Assembly (NCBI GenBank): GCA_038321975.1
Contig: JBBQFM010000015.1
Location: 5,786 to 69,785 of the forward strand
Length of the DNA: 64,000 nucleotides
Reading direction: 5' to 3'
Source of the DNA: Fimbriimonadales bacterium
GTDB taxonomy: Bacteria; Armatimonadota; Fimbriimonadia; Fimbriimonadales; Fimbriimonadaceae
Position numbers and translations under genes: made by a program. Positions within the stretch are counted from its first letter, which is position 1; each line of letters starts with the position of its first letter. Below are positions 31,131-38,328 of this stretch, piece by piece. The notes beneath the pieces were generated by a model. It was given only the letters and a program-made list of their open reading frames with translations. It was not told the DNA's origin and made no database searches.

Positions 31131-32795
31131 TTGAGTAGTAGTCCACCGACCACGTTAGGCCAATATCAAATCATCCGCGAGATCGCGCGCTCGAACGACA
31201 TCGTTTACGAGGCGTATGACCCGCTGATGAATCGTCGCGTCGCAGTGAAAGAACTTGCGATGCCCCAAGGTGCTACGTCCCAACAGCAAACCGAGCGCAT
31301 CAGCCGATTCAAGCGCGAGGCCCAAGCCGCGGGCACCCTGAACCATCCGAACATCATGACGGTGTACTCGTTCGCCGAGGACGCGGGCCGGACGTTCATG
31401 GCGATGGAGTATCTCGATGGCGGCACCCTGCGCAACGAGATCGATACCAAGGGCTTCGTCCCTGTGGACCGGGCTATCGATATCGCATTTGAGCTTCTGA
31501 ACGGCCTGGAGCACGCCCACAGCAAGGGCGTCATTCACCGAGACATCAAGCCGGACAACATCCAGATCCTGTCCGAGGGTCAGATCAAGATCACTGACTT
31601 CGGCATCGCCCGATTGACCTTCCAGCCGAACCTGACGATGGACGGTCAGGTTTTCGGAACCCCGAGCTACATGTCTCCGGAGCAGGTAGTTGGCAAGGAT
31701 ATCGACGCGCGTAGCGACCTGTTCAGCGTCGGAGTCGTGCTTTACGAGATGATCTCCGGCCAGAAGCCGTTTGCGGGTGACAGCGTCGTGAGCATCACGT
31801 ACGCGATCATGAACAAGGAGCCGGATCAGCCCACTCAAATGAGCTATCCGCTGTGGCAGGTGGTCAGTCGGGCTCTGGATAAGAGCCCGGCGATGCGGTA
31901 TGGCAACGCCACTGAAATGATTCTGGCCCTGAAGGATGTGATCCAGGCCCAAAGCTCCGGCGCGATGTCGATTCCTGATCCTGGGCAAACGCAATACAGC
32001 CCTTACGGCATGCCGGCGCCACCCTACGTCCAGCAGAACCCGTACATTCAAGCTCAGCCTCAAGCGGCGCCTCCCATCGTTTATCCGTACAACCCGTATC
32101 AGCAGGGCGCGCCCCAAATGGCAAACCCGCAGATGGGCTTCATGCCGCCGCCAATGCAGGGTGGGTACCCGATGCAGCAGCCGGTTTTCTATCCGCCCCC
32201 TCCTCGGCAGCCGCTGATGAAGCCGGATACGGTGATCTTCCTCAAGCGCACGTTGGTAGCGGTCATCGTGCTCGGGACTCTGTTCTTCCTCATCGTCGTG
32301 GGCGTCAATGCGATCGCGACGTCGATGAATCGAGATGCGAAGGCTAAAGAAACCTCGATAAGTAAGCAGGATGCGATTCGGCTCACGTCTCAGGCGAACA
32401 ACTACGTTCAGAACGGCAACTACGAGCAAGCGGAAAGCGCCTATAGCGACGCGGTATCAAAGGCCCCCGATTTGGTGGAGCCGCGAATCGGTCGGGCTTC
32501 GTTGCTTGAGAGCAACGCGAAGCAGCAAAAAGAAAATCCGAGTTTGAGTTATGCGCTTTGGGAGCACGCGGGCGAGGATTGGAAGGCGGCGTCCGACGGA
32601 GTAACCAGCGCACAGCTTCGTGACACCTACGCCGAGAACGGTGCCCGATGCCTGTACATGTCGGCCCTCGCAATGAGAGAGACACAAACTTCTTCTCAGA
32701 CGGTGCGGGACACCCTTTACACCGCGAAATCGATGGCACCCAACAACTCCGGTGTGCGCCAACAGATCGCAGATCTCCTCAGCGAGATGCAGTAG
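31131..32795 (+). CDS. Hanks-type Ser/Thr protein kinase with TM helix and extracytoplasmic TPR-like domain
   Basis: RRVAVKEL, VIHRDIKPDN, KITDFGIAR, GTPSYMSPEQ, DLFSVG; P/Q/Y/M-rich linker; TM segment LVAVIVLGTLFFLIVVGV. Confidence 0.93.
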   Translation: MSSSPPTTLGQYQIIREIARSNDIVYEAYDPLMNRRVAVKELAMPQGATSQQQTERISRFKREAQAAGTLNHPNIMTVYSFAEDAGRTFMAMEYLDGGTLRNEIDTKGFVPVDRAIDIAFELLNGLEHAHSKGVIHRDIKPDNIQILSEGQIKITDFGIARLTFQPNLTMDGQVFGTPSYMSPEQVVGKDIDARSDLFSVGVVLYEMISGQKPFAGDSVVSITYAIMNKEPDQPTQMSYPLWQVVSRALDKSPAMRYGNATEMILALKDVIQAQSSGAMSIPDPGQTQYSPYGMPAPPYVQQNPYIQAQPQAAPPIVYPYNPYQQGAPQMANPQMGFMPPPMQGGYPMQQPVFYPPPPRQPLMKPDTVIFLKRTLVAVIVLGTLFFLIVVGVNAIATSMNRDAKAKETSISKQDAIRLTSQANNYVQNGNYEQAESAYSDAVSKAPDLVEPRIGRASLLESNAKQQKENPSLSYALWEHAGEDWKAASDGVTSAQLRDTYAENGARCLYMSALAMRETQTSSQTVRDTLYTAKSMAPNNSGVRQQIADLLSEMQ

Positions 32796-33575: not shown

Positions 33576-33582
33576 GTGGGAA

Positions 33583-33608
33583 ATGATGAACGATGAATGA
33601 TGAATCAT
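33583..33608. repeat. Orphan GATGAA[T/C] heptamer array, same unit as the four-helix-bundle flanks
   Basis: ATGATGAACGATGAATGATGAATCAT. Confidence 0.7.
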
Positions 33609-33704
33609 GGGTATGTCCTCCTTTCAGGTTAGAACTTGCTGACTCAGAAACGCCGAACAAAAGGTGCCGACCGCCAGAGATAGTGGCTAGGCCTTAATTA
33701 CAAT

Positions 33705-33728
33705 CTCCTGCTGTGTTCTCAGCAGGAG
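33705..33728. promoter_or_regulatory. Perfect 9-bp hairpin at the left edge of the low-GC segment
   Basis: CTCCTGCTG-TGTTCT-CAGCAGGAG; function unknown. Confidence 0.4.
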
Positions 33729-33798
33729 GAGTTGTCGACCCATGCCCATGAATGGTTCCTGAATCCTTGGGGATGCAATCTACGTATGTCATTCGTAC

Positions 33799-36780
33799 GT
33801 GGATTTTCCTCGATCGCTAAGAGACGCCTGCTTCCCTCCAGAACAGAAAATATCTCCTTTCTCACGCCCATTCTGGCGGCTATCAAGGCTGGCAGGACTC
33901 TTTCAGGCTCGAAGACAGCATCGGTCCCCCGAGTCGGTAGCGTGGAGCCAAGTTCAAGGATGGTTTTTTGCTCCCCTTTTTTTGATTGTGCTTTTGGCTT
34001 GGCCGCACTTCAAATCTCCCGTCCCGCGGGATCCAAACGCGCTTGCAAGTTTCCTGATAACCCTTTGGCAGGTTCACGGGTCGATCGCCGTTGTTTCGAC
34101 AGTCGTCTTTGTGATCTTGCTTCAAACCGCCAACTTCTCGAAAAGAACAACCTCAACGGTCCTCAAACTAGCGCTTGAAGCACGGATCCTATCGGCGTCA
34201 GCCTATGGGTTTTCGACGACATGCGCGATCGGTCTCGTGCTCTTGATCGATCAGCAGTGGGGCGCACTCACTTGGGCAGTGGTCGCAATCGTAATTTCCG
34301 CGTTTCTCTCGAACGTTGGCTTCGTTCTTTTCGTGCTTACCCAGAGCATAACTTTCCTAGCGAAGTCGCGACTCGCAAGGATTGAGCGAGAAAACCTGAT
34401 CAAACAGGTTGAAAGGCTCGCGGAGTCTGAGATCCGAGAGCAAATCTCCCTCAAATGGTTGATCGAGCACTTTGATAAAACAAGCGTCACAAACTTCTAC
34501 TTTGAATTGCCTGAGGGTTTACCACGATGGTCGGTGGAGAGCCACAAGAGTCAGATGGTTTCCGACATAAACGTTGAAAAGCTCATTCAGATCGGAGAAG
34601 ATTTACAAAGACGGCTTTCCACGGACGAACCTGTAATCAAACTCTTCGCGCGATTGGAATGGTCTTCGAGAGATGATAACGTAACGATTGCGGAGATTTT
34701 AGGCTCTCACGACAAAAACCTCGAACGCGAAATCAGGGGTTGCTTAACCTGGTCGAGGAAAGACGAAGGCGATGGCGAGGAACTGCTGGCAGGAGTCCTT
34801 GATCAAGTCCAGATGTCCGTAACCACTGGTGACATCACTGCCTTCAAGGATGGCCTCAAGATTTGTTCTGATGTTCTAGAAGCCACTCTCGGCAAACTCG
34901 ACCAGTTCGGATTAGCACGAGATGAGGGCGTCGGTCAGATGTCCAGTTTTTATGCTGTACATCGAATGCTGCGATTCGCCCTTGAGGAGGCTCTAAAGTC
35001 TGGGCGACCCGTTTTCGGGCAGACCGCGGTCCACGAACTGGCGCATTTAGCCGAACTGGGAATAAAGTTCGGGAACCGCGAGGCGGTTCGACAGTTGCTT
35101 CTGATGTACCCGTTCTTACGCAAAGTAGTCCTCGCGTCTGAATGGAAATCGGATCAGAGTTACCGCGAGTTCTATTGGCGCCCATTGAAGGAACTCGCCT
35201 CCTGGACCTCGTACGGGCTAGACGTAAACTCACAAGAGTTTGCTGAGACCGCGCTAGTTGCCATCTCAGAGGCCTTTTTGGTGATGTTGAAGGACTCCAT
35301 TTTGGAAGGTGGAGAGGACCTTGACAACCTCCTAAATGGCTGGCGCTTGGCTTTCGGCGAGGATGACACTAGGAGCGCCTTGCGGACCCGCCGTTTGAGT
35401 TCTTCCGCAGAGGATCTTGCCCTTAAATCGCATTGGATCTCCTTACTTGCCTGGACAGTCTATTTAGGGATTTCAGGCCAATTGGAACCACGAAAATTCT
35501 CTTTCATTTTCTCAAAACTTGCAGCGAAGTTCACTGAATTGAATGACGTTTTAGCCGCTGCTGCACATGCAAGCAGAATGGGAGATGATGACCGTGCTGA
35601 CCTGTCTGGATGGCTATTTTCAGTTTTGGCAGAAGGACAGGTACATGGCATCGACGAACGCACACCGATCGCCCAAGCGTGCGTAATTGTCCTGCTACTG
35701 AGGGCATCGGCACCACTCAGTCGCAAGCGTTTTGTGCCAACTCGGGAGTCATCAAGCGCTGCCGAGATTGCCGAAGACGCCTTGAAAGTTGTCGAGTCTC
35801 TTCGCGGACCCAGCACGCTTGCCAATCTCATAGTCGACTCGGGACTTCTCTCGAAGGTATCGAAGAAGCCTCTTGACGACTTGCAACAAGGCTTTGAGCG
35901 CGTCCGTGAAGAGGTGAAGGAACAACTTCGAGCAGTCGTCCGCGACAGTAGTTTGGATCAGGCTGTCGTTAATACTTTTATCGAAGATGTTCGAACAGGC
36001 TATACATCCACCAATTTTTTTGGTTCAATTCCCGAAGTTGCCAAAATAGACCAGAACCTCAAGCCGTACGTAAAGGGCCAAACGTTCGTGGGAATCAACG
36101 AATTGCACGACAAGAGGTTTTTTACGACGAATGGATTTGGCGTATTTCAATTGGCAAACAACGCAGTGGAGATGTTGTCCAGGGGTGTGCAGAAGTCCGT
36201 ATTAGAGGGTTTTGCGGCTGAGTCCGAGGATCGAAGACTCGTGGACCGAGATAAGCTCCTGTTAGAACTAGTAGAGATTTGCCGATCGCAGAGGCAAGGC
36301 TGTATCGTCGTCCAAGGAGTTGACGCAAGGCTAAACATTGAGAGGCACCCCGACTTCAAGTATGTAGACGACAAGAGACAGAAGGGCGAATTGGGCACGC
36401 TTGTAGGCGTGCCTGTGTTCTTGGGCTTTGACATTCAAACATTTGCCGCACTCTATCTTCCTTATGGAAGCGTTCAGATTGCTTATGCCGCCGTGAGGGA
36501 AGGCGAATCGCATCCAGTCTCAAACGTCGTTGAATTCGTGGACAACCATAAAGCCGAAGAGATTGTGAAGTCGTGGACGCATTCCAAAGCACGTGAGTTT
36601 GCCTCAACAAAGGAGCGGGAGGAGAAGGTGCTCGAACTTCAAGAAACTGTAGCGCTCCACATCGGAGTCCGTCCGATAGCAGTTTGTACGGGGTGCACGG
36701 CATTATTGACCAGCAGACACCTAGATGATGATGAGGATGAACTTACAACAGAAGATGAACTTGCGCCGCCCCAGGACTGA
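33799..36780 (+). CDS. 993-aa hypothetical protein: about 4 N-terminal TM helices, long helical region, possible HK97-fold-like C-terminus
   Basis: Long ORF with visibly more A/T-ending codons than its neighbours; hydrophobic segments in aa ~55-190. Confidence 0.8.
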   Translation: MDFPRSLRDACFPPEQKISPFSRPFWRLSRLAGLFQARRQHRSPESVAWSQVQGWFFAPLFLIVLLAWPHFKSPVPRDPNALASFLITLWQVHGSIAVVSTVVFVILLQTANFSKRTTSTVLKLALEARILSASAYGFSTTCAIGLVLLIDQQWGALTWAVVAIVISAFLSNVGFVLFVLTQSITFLAKSRLARIERENLIKQVERLAESEIREQISLKWLIEHFDKTSVTNFYFELPEGLPRWSVESHKSQMVSDINVEKLIQIGEDLQRRLSTDEPVIKLFARLEWSSRDDNVTIAEILGSHDKNLEREIRGCLTWSRKDEGDGEELLAGVLDQVQMSVTTGDITAFKDGLKICSDVLEATLGKLDQFGLARDEGVGQMSSFYAVHRMLRFALEEALKSGRPVFGQTAVHELAHLAELGIKFGNREAVRQLLLMYPFLRKVVLASEWKSDQSYREFYWRPLKELASWTSYGLDVNSQEFAETALVAISEAFLVMLKDSILEGGEDLDNLLNGWRLAFGEDDTRSALRTRRLSSSAEDLALKSHWISLLAWTVYLGISGQLEPRKFSFIFSKLAAKFTELNDVLAAAAHASRMGDDDRADLSGWLFSVLAEGQVHGIDERTPIAQACVIVLLLRASAPLSRKRFVPTRESSSAAEIAEDALKVVESLRGPSTLANLIVDSGLLSKVSKKPLDDLQQGFERVREEVKEQLRAVVRDSSLDQAVVNTFIEDVRTGYTSTNFFGSIPEVAKIDQNLKPYVKGQTFVGINELHDKRFFTTNGFGVFQLANNAVEMLSRGVQKSVLEGFAAESEDRRLVDRDKLLLELVEICRSQRQGCIVVQGVDARLNIERHPDFKYVDDKRQKGELGTLVGVPVFLGFDIQTFAALYLPYGSVQIAYAAVREGESHPVSNVVEFVDNHKAEEIVKSWTHSKAREFASTKEREEKVLELQETVALHIGVRPIAVCTGCTALLTSRHLDDDEDELTTEDELAPPQD

Positions 36781-36804
36781 CTCGCTCGTACTACATTCGA
36801 CAAT

Positions 36805-37158
<354 letters not shown>

Positions 37159-37191
37159 TCACCGTACTCGACCGGTATCCTCCAAGACTCG

Positions 37192-37518
37192 ATGCCCGTC
37201 TTTGAATACCGCTGCGCGGACTGTAGGAAGAAGTTCTCCGCCCTCGTCGGAATGACGGCGGAGCCGGATGATAGCAAGTGTCCGAACTGTGGCTCGCTGA
37301 GAACGGAGAAATTGGTCAGTCGGTTCGCTCGGTACCGAAGCGAGGACGACCGGATGGACGAGGTGGCGGATCGTCTGGAGGCGATGGGGGAGCCGGAGAG
37401 CACGTCGGAGATGCGGGCGGCAATGCGGGAGATGGGGAAGGCGATGGACGAGGACGTTTCCGATGAGATGGAGGCGATGTTCGAAGCGGATGTGGCGGAT
37501 GACGCAGAAGAAGCTTGA
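37192..37518 (+). CDS. FmdB-family zinc-ribbon protein
   Basis: MPVFEYRCADC...CPNCGS with an acidic tail. Confidence 0.85.
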   Translation: MPVFEYRCADCRKKFSALVGMTAEPDDSKCPNCGSLRTEKLVSRFARYRSEDDRMDEVADRLEAMGEPESTSEMRAAMREMGKAMDEDVSDEMEAMFEADVADDAEEA

Positions 37519-37527
37519 CGGCTCAAC

Positions 37528-37716: not shown

Positions 37717-38328
37717 ATGGCCAAGACCTCTTCCAGCAAAGACAAACTCGGGAAGCTCACGGTGGTGTGCGGAAGCATGTTCGCGGGGAAGAGTGAGGAG
37801 CTCATTCGGTTGGCGAGGCGGTCGCTGTACGCGAAGAAGATCGTGCAGGTGTTCAAGCCGGAGATCGACGTTCGGTACGACCAGACGATGGTGGTGACCC
37901 ATATGGGGGTGAAGCACGAGGCGTTGCCGGTCAAGAATGTTCGAGATCTGAAGGCGAAGGTGCGCAAGGACGCCGACGTAATCCTCATTGAGGAAGCTCA
38001 GTTTTTCGACGACTCGATCGTCGAATTCGTAGTGAGTCTGGCGGACAGCGGGGTGGAAGTGATCTGTGCGGGGCTGGATCAGGATTTTCGGCGTGAACCG
38101 TTTGGGCCGATGCCGTCACTGATGTCAGTAGCGGACGAAGTGGTCAAGTTGCGTGCGATCTGTATGAAGTGCGGGCGGCCAGCGAGCCACACGTATCGAC
38201 AGATCGACGGCAAGCCGGCGCACCGGGACGACCCGATTATCTTGATCGGGGCGACTGAATCTTACGAGGCTCGGTGTCGGCGGTGTTACAAACTTCGGAG
38301 CTCTAAGGTTAAGGGAAATGAGGGCTAA
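37717..38328 (+). CDS. tdk: Thymidine kinase
   Basis: GSMFAGKSEEL, VFKPEIDVRY, ILIEEAQFF, GLDQDFRREPFG, CMKC...ARCRRC. Confidence 0.95.
   Translation: MAKTSSSKDKLGKLTVVCGSMFAGKSEELIRLARRSLYAKKIVQVFKPEIDVRYDQTMVVTHMGVKHEALPVKNVRDLKAKVRKDADVILIEEAQFFDDSIVEFVVSLADSGVEVICAGLDQDFRREPFGPMPSLMSVADEVVKLRAICMKCGRPASHTYRQIDGKPAHRDDPIILIGATESYEARCRRCYKLRSSKVKGNEG

What the first reader, a model, noticed from the sequence alone, without database searches (positions are those of the whole stretch)
33799..36780. Horizontally acquired 993-aa membrane protein whose C-terminus reads like an HK97 capsid fold: candidate anti-phage decoy or sensor
Seen: lower GC than flanks by eye, about 4 N-terminal TM helices and about 550 aa of helical sequence. 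The last ~300 aa run: helix (LDQAVVNTFIEDVR...FFGSI), beta-hairpin (KGQTFVGINELHDKRFF), long helix (LANNAVEMLSRGVQKSVLEG), alpha/beta segment (KLLLELVEIC..QGCIVVQG..RLNIERHPDF), GELGTLVGVPVFL, terminal strands (TVALHIGVRPIAV). Established: HK97-fold capsids and encapsulins have this order of elements and often a G-x-[LI]-x-G-x-P-V motif. Inference, by eye only: a membrane-tethered capsid-like domain could co-assemble with or sense phage capsid protein and trigger a membrane effector. I know of no named system with this architecture.
Basis: inference. Interest (0 to 1): 0.8.

Follow-up and report, generated by a model that had tools for sequence, protein, structure and literature searches.

The report
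Membrane protein with capsid-fold domain
A rare, horizontally acquired bacterial gene encodes an inner-membrane protein whose cytoplasmic end is predicted to fold like the head (capsid) protein of tailed phages, an architecture not described before and a plausible new way for bacteria or their mobile elements to interfere with phage assembly.

Summary
The 993-aa ORF (33799-36780, +) is real, intact and compositionally foreign: GC 50.9% against 58.4% for the genome. It is absent from 60 related genomes and abuts a truncated proline-iminopeptidase gene.

No Pfam, NCBIfam, PADLOC or PHROG model matches it. Only 27 cluster representatives among 1.84 billion proteins are related; all 20 clusters looked up hold one or two sequences.

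An AlphaFold2 model built on 25 relatives (pLDDT 85.6) shows four parts:
- a 4-TM module plus small α/β domain, homologous to the N-terminal two-thirds of DUF2254 (hhalign 95.8%);
- a ~390-aa α-solenoid;
- a ~250-aa C-terminal α/β domain;
- an acidic tail.

In Foldseek the only α/β matches are HK97-fold major capsid proteins (probability 0.96-1.0, TM 0.3-0.47). A weak colinear profile match to Pfam Phage_capsid (P=0.006; 0 of 25 shuffles reach it) agrees.

Relatives have no conserved partner gene. They sit beside integrases, transposases, ArdC, a type II RM system, a Thoeris-like TIR protein and Shedu.

The likeliest function is a stand-alone phage or mobile-element conflict protein using capsid mimicry. 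That function is inferred, not shown.

The parts
33609..33798 (+). Upstream intergenic region. It holds the left boundary of the acquired segment (not mapped) and a 9-bp-stem hairpin at 33705-33728.
   Evidence: The SDR gene starts at 33608 on the minus strand. The hairpin was found. No flanking direct or inverted repeats were found. The ATGATGA-type low-complexity stretch at 33578-33609 only attracts unrelated contigs.
33799..36780 (+). Complete gene, 993 aa, GTG start. It is a singleton accessory membrane protein.
   Evidence: establish the ORF and the conserved N-terminus. Composition outlier. Present in 1 of 61 related genomes.
33916..34368 (+). Membrane module, aa ~40-190. Four TM helices, N-in, so the remaining ~800 aa are cytoplasmic.
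   Evidence: Hydropathy and positive-inside charge. AF2 helices 44-67, 79-110, 130-154 and 159-186.
34030..34773 (+). DUF2254-like region, aa 78-325: TM2-4, the juxtamembrane stalk helix 189-225, and a small beta-beta-alpha-beta-beta-alpha-beta domain at 243-320.
   Evidence: hhalign of the N-terminal family profile against a PF10011 profile gives probability 95.8%, E=7.6e-9, covering columns 44-281 of 377 (profile of alignment A7); the reversed control scores 19. Two distant family members pass the Pfam gathering cut-off for DUF2254.
34774..35943 (+). Alpha-solenoid (helical-repeat) arm, aa 326-715.
   Evidence: The AF2 model is all-helical here with pLDDT mostly above 90. Foldseek and HMMER match only designed helical repeats, importin and CNOT1-type solenoids.
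35944..36714 (+). HK97-fold capsid-protein-like domain, aa 716-972. In order: N-helix, E-loop-like hairpin, 26-residue spine helix, A-domain helix and strands with the G-x-L-x-G-V-P-V motif, then long C-terminal P-domain strands.
   Evidence: Secondary-structure order. Foldseek hits: 8zdh_A, 8gta_A, 8zdk (PDB) and at least 10 named HK97 MCPs in the BFVD top 22, probability 0.96-1.0. hhalign against a PF05065 profile scores 26.5, P=0.0064, with 0 of 25 shuffles reaching it. Weak Linocin_M18 and ENCP4 hits. The domain is conserved in all full-length relatives.
36715..36777 (+). Acidic C-terminal tail (…HLDDDEDELTTEDELAPPQD), disordered in the model.
   Evidence: pLDDT is below 50 for 978-993. 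D/E-rich tails are present in nearly all close relatives.
36781..36858 (+). 3' flank of the acquired segment, running up to the recombination breakpoint.
   Evidence: Homology of the neighbouring pip fragment to full-length pip ends at its residue 97, which is window position ~36859.
36805..37149 (-). Truncated proline iminopeptidase gene: a 114-aa ORF of which residues 3-97 match the first 95 residues of a 312-aa enzyme. This is the scar of the insertion or rearrangement.
   Evidence: full-length 312-aa copy in G006; 61% identity over residues 3-97, then none.

Best explanation
**What it is (shown or predicted).** This is an intact single-gene accessory locus acquired by horizontal transfer. 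It encodes an inner-membrane protein with these parts:
- a four-helix membrane module and small juxtamembrane alpha/beta domain, homologous to the N-terminal two-thirds of DUF2254;
- a roughly 390-aa alpha-solenoid arm;
- a roughly 250-aa C-terminal domain with the HK97 major-capsid-protein fold, most probably exapted from a tailed-phage head gene;
- an acidic tail.

Everything after TM4 faces the cytoplasm.

**How it most likely works (inferred).** It is a stand-alone phage or mobile-element conflict protein. The capsid-fold domain would act as a capsomer mimic and engage the head-assembly machinery of an infecting phage (coat protein, scaffold or portal). Two outcomes are possible:
- it co-assembles with the phage proteins and tethers or poisons procapsids at the membrane; or
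- capsomer-like clustering of five or six copies brings the DUF2254-type membrane modules together, permeabilises the membrane and aborts the infection.

**Rough odds.**
- The four-part architecture is as described: 0.8.
- The C-terminal domain is truly HK97-fold: 0.8.
- It descends from a phage capsid gene: 0.65.
- Its role is in phage or mobile-element conflict: 0.45.
- The specific capsid-mimic mechanism is right: 0.3.
For: **Gene and start.**

**Foreign origin.**
- GC, GC3 and codon usage are all outliers.
- The gene is in 1 of 61 related genomes.
- A truncated pip gene lies next to it, with the breakpoint about 78 bp past the stop codon.
- FmdB-TK adjacency is conserved in a relative, but the DNA upstream of it differs.
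- Assembly continuity is confirmed.

**Rarity.** There are 27 representatives at E<=1e-3 among 1.84 billion; all 20 clusters looked up hold one or two sequences. There is no hit in the phage or plasmid collections.

**Architecture.** The AF2 model with the 25-sequence alignment has pLDDT 85.6 and pTM 0.69, and all five models score 82.7-85.6. DUF2254 homology has hhalign probability 95.8%, and two members exceed the Pfam cut-off.

**Capsid fold.**
- Foldseek against PDB: 8zdh_A (Douge capsid; E 9.7e-3, probability 1.0, 247 columns, rmsd 6.2) and 8gta_A (R4C capsid; TM 0.41).
- Foldseek against BFVD: at least 10 named HK97 capsid proteins in the top 22, for example Gordonia phage Trax (267 columns, rmsd 5.3, TM 0.40).
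- Apart from capsids, every PDB hit and every BFVD hit with probability >=0.9 is a helical-repeat protein, matching the solenoid.
- hhalign against a PF05065 profile is colinear (spine helix, A-domain helix and strand, GxPV motif) with score 26.5, against a shuffle maximum of 14.6 and a reversed score of 13.4.
- hhalign against an encapsulin profile scores 22.4.
- Weak Linocin_M18 and ENCP4 hits appear in hmmscan.

**Conflict-system context of relatives.**
- Type II REase (1.6e-133) plus MTase 1.2 kb away in Micromonospora.
- A TIR protein matching PDC-S66/ThsB (2.4e-36) plus a Schlafen/AlbA_2 protein.
- Shedu SduA_C plus an ImmA/IrrE-XRE regulator.
- PLDc_2, DUF87 and a large serine recombinase.
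- A tyrosine integrase 5 bp away plus a DnaB-like helicase.
- ArdC plus an IS element.
- IS1595, IS1 and a Cas4-like nuclease.
- ORF6N.

**No conserved partner gene**, so this is a single-gene system.
Against: - No experiment or solved structure exists. The fold rests on one AF2 model from a shallow alignment of 25 sequences.
- Foldseek E-values are modest (1e-3 to 1e-1) and TM-scores are 0.3-0.47, below the usual 0.5 same-fold mark.
- The tool does not report which query residues aligned. I inferred the C-terminal domain from aligned lengths and from it being the only alpha/beta region of that size.
- No HMMER-level similarity to any capsid family was found in Pfam, PHROGs or PDB.
- hhalign probabilities are low in absolute terms (5.9% and 1.9%). 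One of 25 shuffles matched the encapsulin score.
- There is no PADLOC hit for the protein.
- The window has no recognised defence or mobile gene next to it. The only PADLOC hit nearby is a Hanks-type kinase matching the generic PD-T4-6 models.
- The context sample is small (13 loci), with no computed background rate. Four contexts show nothing suggestive.
- DUF2254 has no known function, so the proposed membrane-effector role is pure inference.

Confidence: 0.4

Rival explanations
1. The protein belongs to a non-defence membrane complex. The HK97-like domain would be only a self-oligomerisation module, forming pentamer or hexamer rings as capsomers and encapsulins do. That ring would assemble or gate a DUF2254-type membrane channel or sensor for the benefit of the host or of a mobile element (for example ion or solute handling, or stress sensing), with no phage protein involved.
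For: - DUF2254 proteins are ordinary chromosomal membrane proteins, found in 17 of 151 genomes of the phylum and in Corynebacterium and Haloferax controls.
- The N-terminal homology is the strongest sequence signal in the protein.
- HK97-fold proteins are intrinsically self-assembling (established knowledge).
- Several contexts, including this window, contain only housekeeping genes.
Against: - Extreme rarity, clusters of only one or two sequences, and patchy spread across Armatimonadota, Actinomycetota and Alphaproteobacteria.
- Absence from all 60 relatives and foreign composition.
- Frequent placement beside integrases, IS elements and defence genes.

All of these are atypical for a housekeeping transporter or sensor.
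Confidence: 0.27
2. The capsid resemblance is not homology. The C-terminal domain would be an unrelated or convergent alpha/beta domain, or the model is partly wrong. The protein would then be a long DUF2254-family membrane protein with a solenoid extension of unknown regulatory role.
For: - TM-scores are below 0.5 and Foldseek E-values are around 1e-2.
- hhalign probabilities are below 6%.
- No capsid family is detected by HMMER in Pfam, PHROGs or PDB.
- The alignment behind the model is shallow.
Against: - Capsid proteins from many unrelated phages are the only alpha/beta hits in two libraries, each with Foldseek probability 0.96-1.0 and covering 85-90% of small capsid proteins.
- The secondary-structure order is the HK97 order.
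- The hhalign alignment is colinear motif for motif and beats 25 of 25 shuffles and the reversed control.
- Two of the seven best weak Pfam hits are encapsulin families, out of 24,736 models.
Confidence: 0.18
3. The gene is a decaying passenger or relic of a mobile element, for instance a fused or rearranged prophage head gene, with no current function in this host.
For: - It lies at a rearrangement scar next to a pseudogene.
- One relative (P0005) is itself 5'-truncated beside an IS1595-like fragment.
Against: - The 2,979-nt frame is intact.
- The alignment to a 49%-identical relative is colinear with a single gap over 971 aa, including the N-terminus.
- All four domains are conserved down to about 16% identity in ~1000-aa relatives from other phyla.
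- No portal, terminase or protease genes are nearby, and the genome has no PF05065 hit.

Together these indicate purifying selection on the whole architecture.
Confidence: 0.07

Closest known systems
HK97-fold major capsid proteins of tailed phages (Pfam PF05065 Phage_capsid; e.g. mycobacteriophage Douge gp8 in PDB 8zdh, siphophage R4C in PDB 8gta)
   Same: The predicted fold and element order of aa ~716-972 are the same: N-helix, E-loop hairpin, long spine helix, A-domain helix and strands, C-terminal P-domain strands. The G-x-P-V strand motif is followed about 10 residues later by a hydrophobic strand. The hhalign match is colinear.
   Different: - No HMMER-detectable similarity.
- The domain is the C-terminal quarter of a 993-aa membrane protein.
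- The gene is not in a phage and has no portal, terminase, protease or scaffold neighbours.
- A two-helix insertion (916-947) precedes the last strands.
Encapsulin shell proteins (Pfam PF04454 Linocin_M18; PF08967 ENCP4)
   Same: These are cell-encoded, exapted HK97-fold proteins. There is a weak hmmscan hit (E 0.048 and 0.14, one member each) and a colinear hhalign match with score 22.4.
   Different: Encapsulins are soluble 260-300-aa proteins that form closed shells around cargo encoded next door. Here the domain is tethered to the membrane through a ~500-aa arm and no cargo gene is present. PDB encapsulin structures were not among the top 50 Foldseek hits.
DUF2254 (Pfam PF10011), predicted membrane proteins of unknown function
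   Same: The N-terminal TM helices, stalk helix and small alpha/beta domain are homologous: hhalign 95.8%, E=7.6e-9. Two family members pass the Pfam cut-off.
   Different: Only columns ~44-281 of the 377-column DUF2254 profile (alignment A7; on the Pfam model two distant members match positions 40-264 and 40-287 of 368) are matched. The conserved DUF2254 C-terminal third (…RT..QD.EFG…SPGINDP…) is replaced by the solenoid and capsid-like domain. P0001 itself does not reach the Pfam threshold.
Capsid-sensing abortive-infection proteins (CapRel-SJ46, PifA of F plasmid, Lit protease)
   Same: The proposed logic is the same: a single-gene or small system that responds to the phage major capsid protein late in infection. 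PifA is membrane-associated. CapRel is directly activated by a capsid protein (bioRxiv 10.1101/2022.05.30.493996, found). The points about PifA and Lit are from my own knowledge.
   Different: None of these uses a capsid-fold domain as the sensor, none has this architecture, and no sequence or PADLOC similarity exists. For the present protein the function is not demonstrated.
Satellite capsid-remodelling proteins (Sid, CpmB, TcaP)
   Same: These are mobile-element proteins that interfere with phage head assembly by binding coat-protein lattices (TcaP: PMC10945586, found).
   Different: They are small external or internal scaffolds without the HK97 fold or a membrane anchor, and they lie inside satellite genomes with packaging genes.

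Membership tests
HK97-family major capsid protein (Pfam PF05065) | Sequence matches the family HMM above the gathering score | tested here: not met
   No PF05065 hit for P0001 at E<=1, nor for 19 C-terminal domains at E<=10. Only hhalign detects it, at P=0.0064.
HK97-family major capsid protein (Pfam PF05065) | HK97 fold: E-loop, spine helix, A-domain and P-domain in canonical order | tested here: met
   Met at prediction level only. The AF2 secondary-structure order and Foldseek probability 0.96-1.0 to many HK97 capsid proteins, TM 0.3-0.47, support it.
HK97-family major capsid protein (Pfam PF05065) | Encoded in a head-morphogenesis module (portal, terminase, protease or scaffold) | tested here: not met
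   The neighbours are an SDR, a Ser/Thr kinase, a pip stump, FmdB and thymidine kinase. The genome has no PF05065 match. No relative context shows head genes.
HK97-family major capsid protein (Pfam PF05065) | Assembles into capsomers or an icosahedral shell | not testable with these tools
   This needs multimer prediction or purification with EM.
Encapsulin (Pfam PF04454 / PF08967) | Match to an encapsulin HMM above the cut-off | tested here: not met
   Best results are E=0.048 (Linocin_M18) and 0.14 (ENCP4), one member each. hhalign gives P=0.026, and 1 of 25 shuffles equals it.
Encapsulin (Pfam PF04454 / PF08967) | Soluble shell protein of ~260-300 aa with an adjacent cargo gene | tested here: not met
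   This is a 993-aa protein with 4 TM helices. No conserved neighbour exists.
DUF2254 (Pfam PF10011) | Match to PF10011 above the gathering score (28.8 bits) | tested here: inconclusive
   P0001 has no hit. The distant relatives P0021 and P0028 score 36.9 and 36.0 bits. The family N-terminal profile against a DUF2254 profile gives hhalign 95.8%, E=7.6e-9.
DUF2254 (Pfam PF10011) | Full domain, including the conserved C-terminal third | tested here: not met
   The alignment covers only columns 44-281 of the 377-column DUF2254 profile (A7); on the Pfam model itself, two distant members match positions 40-264 and 40-287 of 368.
Known anti-phage defence systems (PADLOC-DB 2.0) | Protein matches a model of a known or candidate defence system | tested here: not met
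   The only hit is a chance-level PglZ match, E=0.032.
Defence-island / mobile-element cargo gene (operational class) | Homologues recurrently lie next to defence or mobility genes, and the gene is variably present among close relatives | tested here: met
   Of 13 contexts, 7 show mobile-element hallmarks and 3 show clear known defence genes (RM II, TIR/ThsB-like, Shedu; plus domain-level hints in a fourth). The gene is absent from 60 relatives. No background rate was computed, and this window itself lacks such neighbours.

The most novel reading that the evidence does not exclude
A previously unrecognised class of single-gene anti-phage or exclusion protein built on molecular mimicry. A phage major-capsid-protein domain, captured by bacteria or their mobile elements, is fused through an alpha-solenoid arm to a DUF2254-type membrane module. 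It would co-assemble with, or be nucleated by, the invader's head-assembly intermediates. It would then either trap procapsids at the membrane or convert capsomer-like clustering into membrane permeabilisation. If so, this would be the first example of the HK97 capsid fold being exapted for immunity, and it would give DUF2254 its first functional handle.
Probability: 0.3. Interest if true: 0.9.

Novelty: categorically new. Interest (0 to 1): 0.74.

Why it matters
**Known uses of the fold.** To my knowledge the HK97 capsid fold has three settings: virus heads, gene-transfer agents and encapsulin nanocompartments. All three are soluble, closed shells. A membrane-tethered, single-copy fusion of this fold would be a fourth and qualitatively different use.

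**What it would add to phage defence.** If the protein acts against phages, it would introduce a new sensing principle: recognising a viral structural protein through a captured copy of that same fold. Known capsid sensors such as CapRel, PifA, Lit and Avs use unrelated folds.

**A handle on DUF2254.** It would also offer a way into DUF2254, a widespread membrane family with no known function.

**Testability.** The family is very small, with 27 representatives among 1.84 billion proteins. It spans at least three phyla and travels with integrases, IS elements, RM, TIR and Shedu genes. Its biology is therefore likely conflict-related and could be tested by heterologous expression.

**A note on method.** A by-eye secondary-structure reading of raw sequence correctly predicted a fold that no sequence-family library detects.

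Tried and rejected
1. **Family libraries on the full protein.** Pfam, NCBIfam, PADLOC and PHROGs gave nothing meaningful. PDB sequence search returned only designed helical repeats.

2. **Single-sequence AF2.** The model was unusable, with pLDDT 41. I replaced it with the alignment-based model.

3. **Word-indexed homologue search.** It found only one relative, plus one more when given a profile. The exhaustive representative search was needed.

5. **Conserved partner gene.** ORFs of about 200 aa recur next to four relatives, but they are unrelated to each other. The unknown ORFs upstream in L001 have no Pfam or PADLOC hit. I rejected a multi-gene system.

6. **Boundary repeats or att sites.** None found around the insert.

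7. **An apparent alternative junction at 33578-33589.** It appeared in the read layout but turned out to be ~30-nt matches to an ATGATGA-type low-complexity stretch from unrelated contigs. Rejected.

8. **The 295-aa minus-strand ORF 36639-37526 that overlaps the gene's 3' end.** It is Ser-rich antisense noise lying over the FmdB and pip-fragment genes. Rejected as a gene.

9. **Synteny of pip.** The full-length pip of relatives lies in a different context, so the ancestral empty site could not be reconstructed. Only FmdB-TK adjacency is conserved.

10. **A soluble variant lacking the membrane module (P0005).** It is a 5'-truncated copy next to an IS fragment, not a natural soluble form.

11. 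**Phage and plasmid collections.** No homologue found.

12. **Literature searches.** Searches for a membrane-anchored or defence-related HK97-fold protein, and for DUF2254 function, found nothing relevant.

Full report
**1. The observation**

The ORF is at 33799-36780 (+), starts with GTG and encodes 993 aa. The start codon is credible. The closest relative (P0003, Fimbriimonadaceae MAG GCA_035545155.1) is annotated 83 residues too short. Extended to its own GTG, it aligns with the window protein from residue 1: 49% identity over 971 aa with a single gap.

Composition is clearly foreign:

| Measure | Gene | Genome reference | Rank |
|---|---|---|---|
| GC | 0.509 | 0.584 +/- 0.0165 (3-kb windows) | 0.07% of windows as low |
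| GC3 | 0.545 | 0.718 +/- 0.058 (long ORFs) | bottom 1.1% |
| Codon-adaptation-like index | 0.546 | 0.698 +/- 0.049 | bottom 0.6% |

Hydropathy gives four TM segments at about 47-68, 85-110, 130-150 and 156-186. Positive-inside charge puts the N-terminus and the ~800 C-terminal residues in the cytoplasm.

The locus is not an assembly artefact. One Logan contig of the source sample (6154 bp, depth 17.5, no differences) spans both junctions. A contig from a second sample spans the right junction.

**2. Horizontal acquisition**

The gene is present in the window's own genome only. It is absent from 36 same-genus and 24 same-order genomes.

Immediately downstream, on the minus strand (36805-37149), lies a 114-aa ORF. 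Its residues 3-97 are 61% identical to the first 95 residues of a 312-aa proline iminopeptidase. The similarity then stops, at about window position 36859, which is 78 bp beyond the target's stop codon. So the segment carrying the gene replaced about two-thirds of a resident pip gene.

To the right, the FmdB-type zinc-ribbon gene (37192-37518) and thymidine kinase (37717-38328) are core genes. They are adjacent in a relative too, but what lies upstream of them differs.

No flanking repeats, integrase or transposase are present. The acquired segment is at most 3.25 kb and carries this one gene.

**3. Relatives**

No Pfam, NCBIfam, PADLOC or PHROG family matches the protein, and no PDB sequence does.

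An exhaustive phmmer scan of 1.84 billion cluster representatives found 27 proteins at E<=1e-3. Seven are full-length or nearly so, at 25-49% identity. About ten more are ~900-1100-aa proteins at roughly 16-24% identity.

All 20 clusters looked up hold one or two sequences, all labelled hypothetical. They come from Armatimonadota, an Alphaproteobacteria MAG, Micromonospora sp. WMMD998, an Actinomycetota MAG and various soil or sediment metagenomes. There is no homologue in 50,697 phage or 72,556 plasmid records.

**4. Architecture**

Single-sequence AF2 failed, with pLDDT 41. With the 25-sequence alignment A1 the model is confident: pLDDT 85.6, pTM 0.69, and all five models score 82.7-85.6. 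It shows:

- TM helices up to residue 186;
- a stalk helix at 189-225;
- a small beta-beta-alpha-beta-beta-alpha-beta domain at 243-320;
- an all-helical solenoid at 326 to about 715;
- an alpha/beta domain at about 720-970;
- a disordered acidic tail.

The N-terminal part (aa 78-325) is homologous to DUF2254 (PF10011):

- Two distant family members pass the Pfam cut-off.
- The family's N-terminal profile aligns to a DUF2254 profile built from 13 genomes, with hhalign probability 95.8%, E=7.6e-9 and score 69, against 19 for the reversed control.
- Only columns 44-281 of the 377-column DUF2254 profile are covered. The DUF2254 C-terminal third is replaced here.
- The literature holds nothing on DUF2254 function.

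**5. The capsid-like domain**

*Foldseek.* With the whole model as query, the helical-repeat hits belong to the solenoid. Apart from capsids, every PDB hit, and every BFVD hit with probability >=0.9, is a helical-repeat protein; the only alpha/beta proteins found are HK97-fold capsids.

- PDB:
  - 8zdh_A, mycobacteriophage Douge capsid: E 9.7e-3, probability 1.0, 247 columns, rmsd 6.2.
  - 8gta_A, siphophage R4C capsid: probability 1.0, TM 0.41.
  - 8zdk chains.
- BFVD:
  - At least 10 named HK97 major capsid proteins appear in the top 22, with probability 0.96-1.0.
  - One example is Gordonia phage Trax (267 columns, rmsd 5.3, TM 0.40).
  - Two "Gp5" proteins score TM 0.42-0.47.

The aligned lengths are 235-334 columns and cover 85-90% of small capsid proteins. 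They fit only the 720-970 domain together with its preceding helices.

*Secondary structure.* The order of elements is the HK97 order:

- helix 721-738;
- hairpin 748-755 / 764-771 (E-loop);
- 26-residue helix 783-808 (spine helix);
- strand 811-814;
- helix 817-831 and strand 835-839 (A-domain);
- strands through 913, including the invariant G866-x-x-x-x-x-P872 of G-x-L-x-G-V-P-V;
- long terminal strands 950-970 (P-domain).

*Sequence level.* The signal is weak but consistent.

- hhalign of the C-terminal family profile (A3, 19 sequences) against a PF05065 profile built from 16 prophage capsid genes of the phylum gives score 26.5, P=0.0064.
  - The alignment is colinear: spine helix to spine helix, A-domain helix and strand to helix and strand, G-x-P-V to G-V-P-V.
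  - Column shuffles reached at most 14.6 (0 of 25). The reversed profile scored 13.4.
- Against an encapsulin profile the score is 22.4, P=0.026. One of 25 shuffles equalled it.
- hmmscan of the isolated domains gave Linocin_M18 (E=0.048) and ENCP4 (E=0.14) among its seven best weak hits.
- PHROGs and PDB sequence searches found nothing.

*My estimate.* The HK97 fold is likely (about 0.8). Descent from a phage capsid gene is probable (about 0.65). Neither is proven. TM-scores are below 0.5, and the tool does not report query ranges.

**6. Context of relatives**

No partner gene is conserved. Look-alike ~200-aa neighbours in four loci are unrelated to each other, and unknown neighbours have no family hits.

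| Locus | Relative | Neighbouring genes |
|---|---|---|
| L001 | P0003 | ArdC, IS (DDE_Tnp_1) |
| L017 | P0004 | XRE repressor, IS1595, IS1, Cas4-like nuclease |
| L018 | P0005 | IS1595-like fragment; the gene itself is 5'-truncated |
| L020 | P0006 | TIR protein matching PDC-S66/ThsB (2.4e-36), Schlafen/AlbA_2 |
| L071 | P0018 (Micromonospora) | type II REase (1.6e-133) plus MTase, 1.2 kb downstream |
| L092 | P0027 | Shedu SduA_C, ImmA/IrrE-XRE |
| L090 | P0029 | ORF6N |
| L109 | P0021 | tyrosine integrase 5 bp away, DnaB-like helicase |
| L110 | P0014 | PLDc_2, XRE, DUF87, large serine recombinase |
| L021, L091, L072, window | P0007, P0030, P0013, P0001 | nothing clear |

In the window, the only PADLOC hit nearby is a Hanks-type Ser/Thr kinase matching the generic PD-T4-6 models.

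The family therefore behaves as a mobile accessory gene that often lands in defence or mobile-element neighbourhoods. The sample is small, and I did not compute a background rate.

**7. Mechanism**

*Shown or predicted:*
- a cytoplasmic capsid-fold domain on a long solenoid arm, anchored by a DUF2254-type four-helix membrane module;
- a single-gene unit;
- horizontal mobility.

*Inferred.* HK97-fold proteins make capsomers through conserved lateral interfaces. The domain is therefore suited to do one of two things:
- join or cap the assembling head lattice of an invading phage, tethering or poisoning procapsids at the membrane; or
- be nucleated into pentamer- or hexamer-like clusters, bringing the membrane modules together to breach the membrane (abortive infection).

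The conserved acidic tail might mimic scaffold or DNA contacts, but that is speculation. I put the specific capsid-mimic mechanism at about 0.3 and any phage or mobile-element conflict role at about 0.45.

*Rivals:*
- a non-defence membrane complex in which the domain merely oligomerises (0.27);
- a resemblance that is not homology, or a flawed model (0.18);
- a functionless relic (0.07), which the intact frame and four-domain conservation across phyla argue against.

**8. Comparison with known systems, and novelty**

- The protein is not a member of PF05065 or of the encapsulin families. The HMM thresholds are not met, there is no head module and no cargo gene.
- It is only a partial relative of DUF2254.
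- It matches no PADLOC system.
- The capsid sensors I know of (CapRel, PifA, Lit, Avs) do not use a capsid fold.
- Satellite capsid remodellers (Sid, CpmB, TcaP) are not HK97-fold and are not membrane proteins.
- Full-text searches found no description of a membrane-anchored or immunity-related HK97-fold protein.

I therefore rate the architecture as categorically new, with the function still to be established.

**9. Verdict**

| Question | Result |
|---|---|
| Observation | confirmed |
| Interest | 0.74 |

Noticed in passing
window 36805-37149 (-): A pseudogene stump of proline iminopeptidase. It is a 114-aa ORF of which residues 3-97 are 61% identical to the start of a 312-aa enzyme in a same-genus genome. 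It is cut off next to the 3' end of the target gene.
   Followed up: yes
window 37192-37518 (+) and 37717-38328 (+): An FmdB-type CxxC…CxxC zinc-ribbon protein with an acidic tail is followed by thymidine kinase. The pair is adjacent in a relative too (L086), and TK is present in 35 of 37 genomes of the genus.
   Followed up: partly
window 31131-32795 (+): A Hanks-type Ser/Thr kinase (554 aa) 1 kb upstream hits many PADLOC PD-T4-6 models (best 3e-81) and mad6. These models are generic for the kinase domain. I did not test whether this kinase is core or defence-related.
   Followed up: no
window 36639-37526 (-): A 295-aa ORF overlaps the target's 3' end by 141 nt. It is Ser-rich low-complexity antisense of the FmdB gene and pip fragment, so it is not a gene.
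   Followed up: yes
window 33578-33609: A tandem AATGATGA(A/T)CGATG-type low-complexity stretch at the 5' end of the SDR gene attracts ~30-nt matches from many unrelated metagenome contigs, with apparent depth up to about 250x. In read layouts this mimics an alternative junction.
   Followed up: yes
L001 9752-12715 (GCA_035545155.1, DASZYX010000023.1): The public annotation of the closest homologue (904 aa) starts 83 codons too late. The upstream GTG gives a 987-aa product whose N-terminus is conserved with the window protein and includes the first TM helix.
   Followed up: yes
L018 2292-4712 and 2-607: Homologue P0005 is a 5'-truncated copy. The reading frame upstream still encodes the end of TM4 before a stop codon. 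It lies downstream of an IS1595-type transposase fragment.
   Followed up: partly
L071 14065-16118 (Micromonospora sp. WMMD998, CP120740.1): A type II restriction enzyme (PADLOC REase_II, 1.6e-133) and its methyltransferase lie 1.2 kb downstream of the family member WP_282283844.1. This is the only homologue found here in a complete genome (Micromonospora sp. WMMD998), so it is the best candidate for experiments.
   Followed up: partly
P0001 aa 243-320 (window 34525-34758): The small juxtamembrane domain shared with DUF2254 has a beta-beta-alpha-beta-beta-alpha-beta order and a 'G-Y-V..ID...L..LA … G.FV..G.PL' pattern. This is reminiscent of RCK_C/TrkA_C-type regulatory domains. The comparison is from memory and was not tested.
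   Followed up: no
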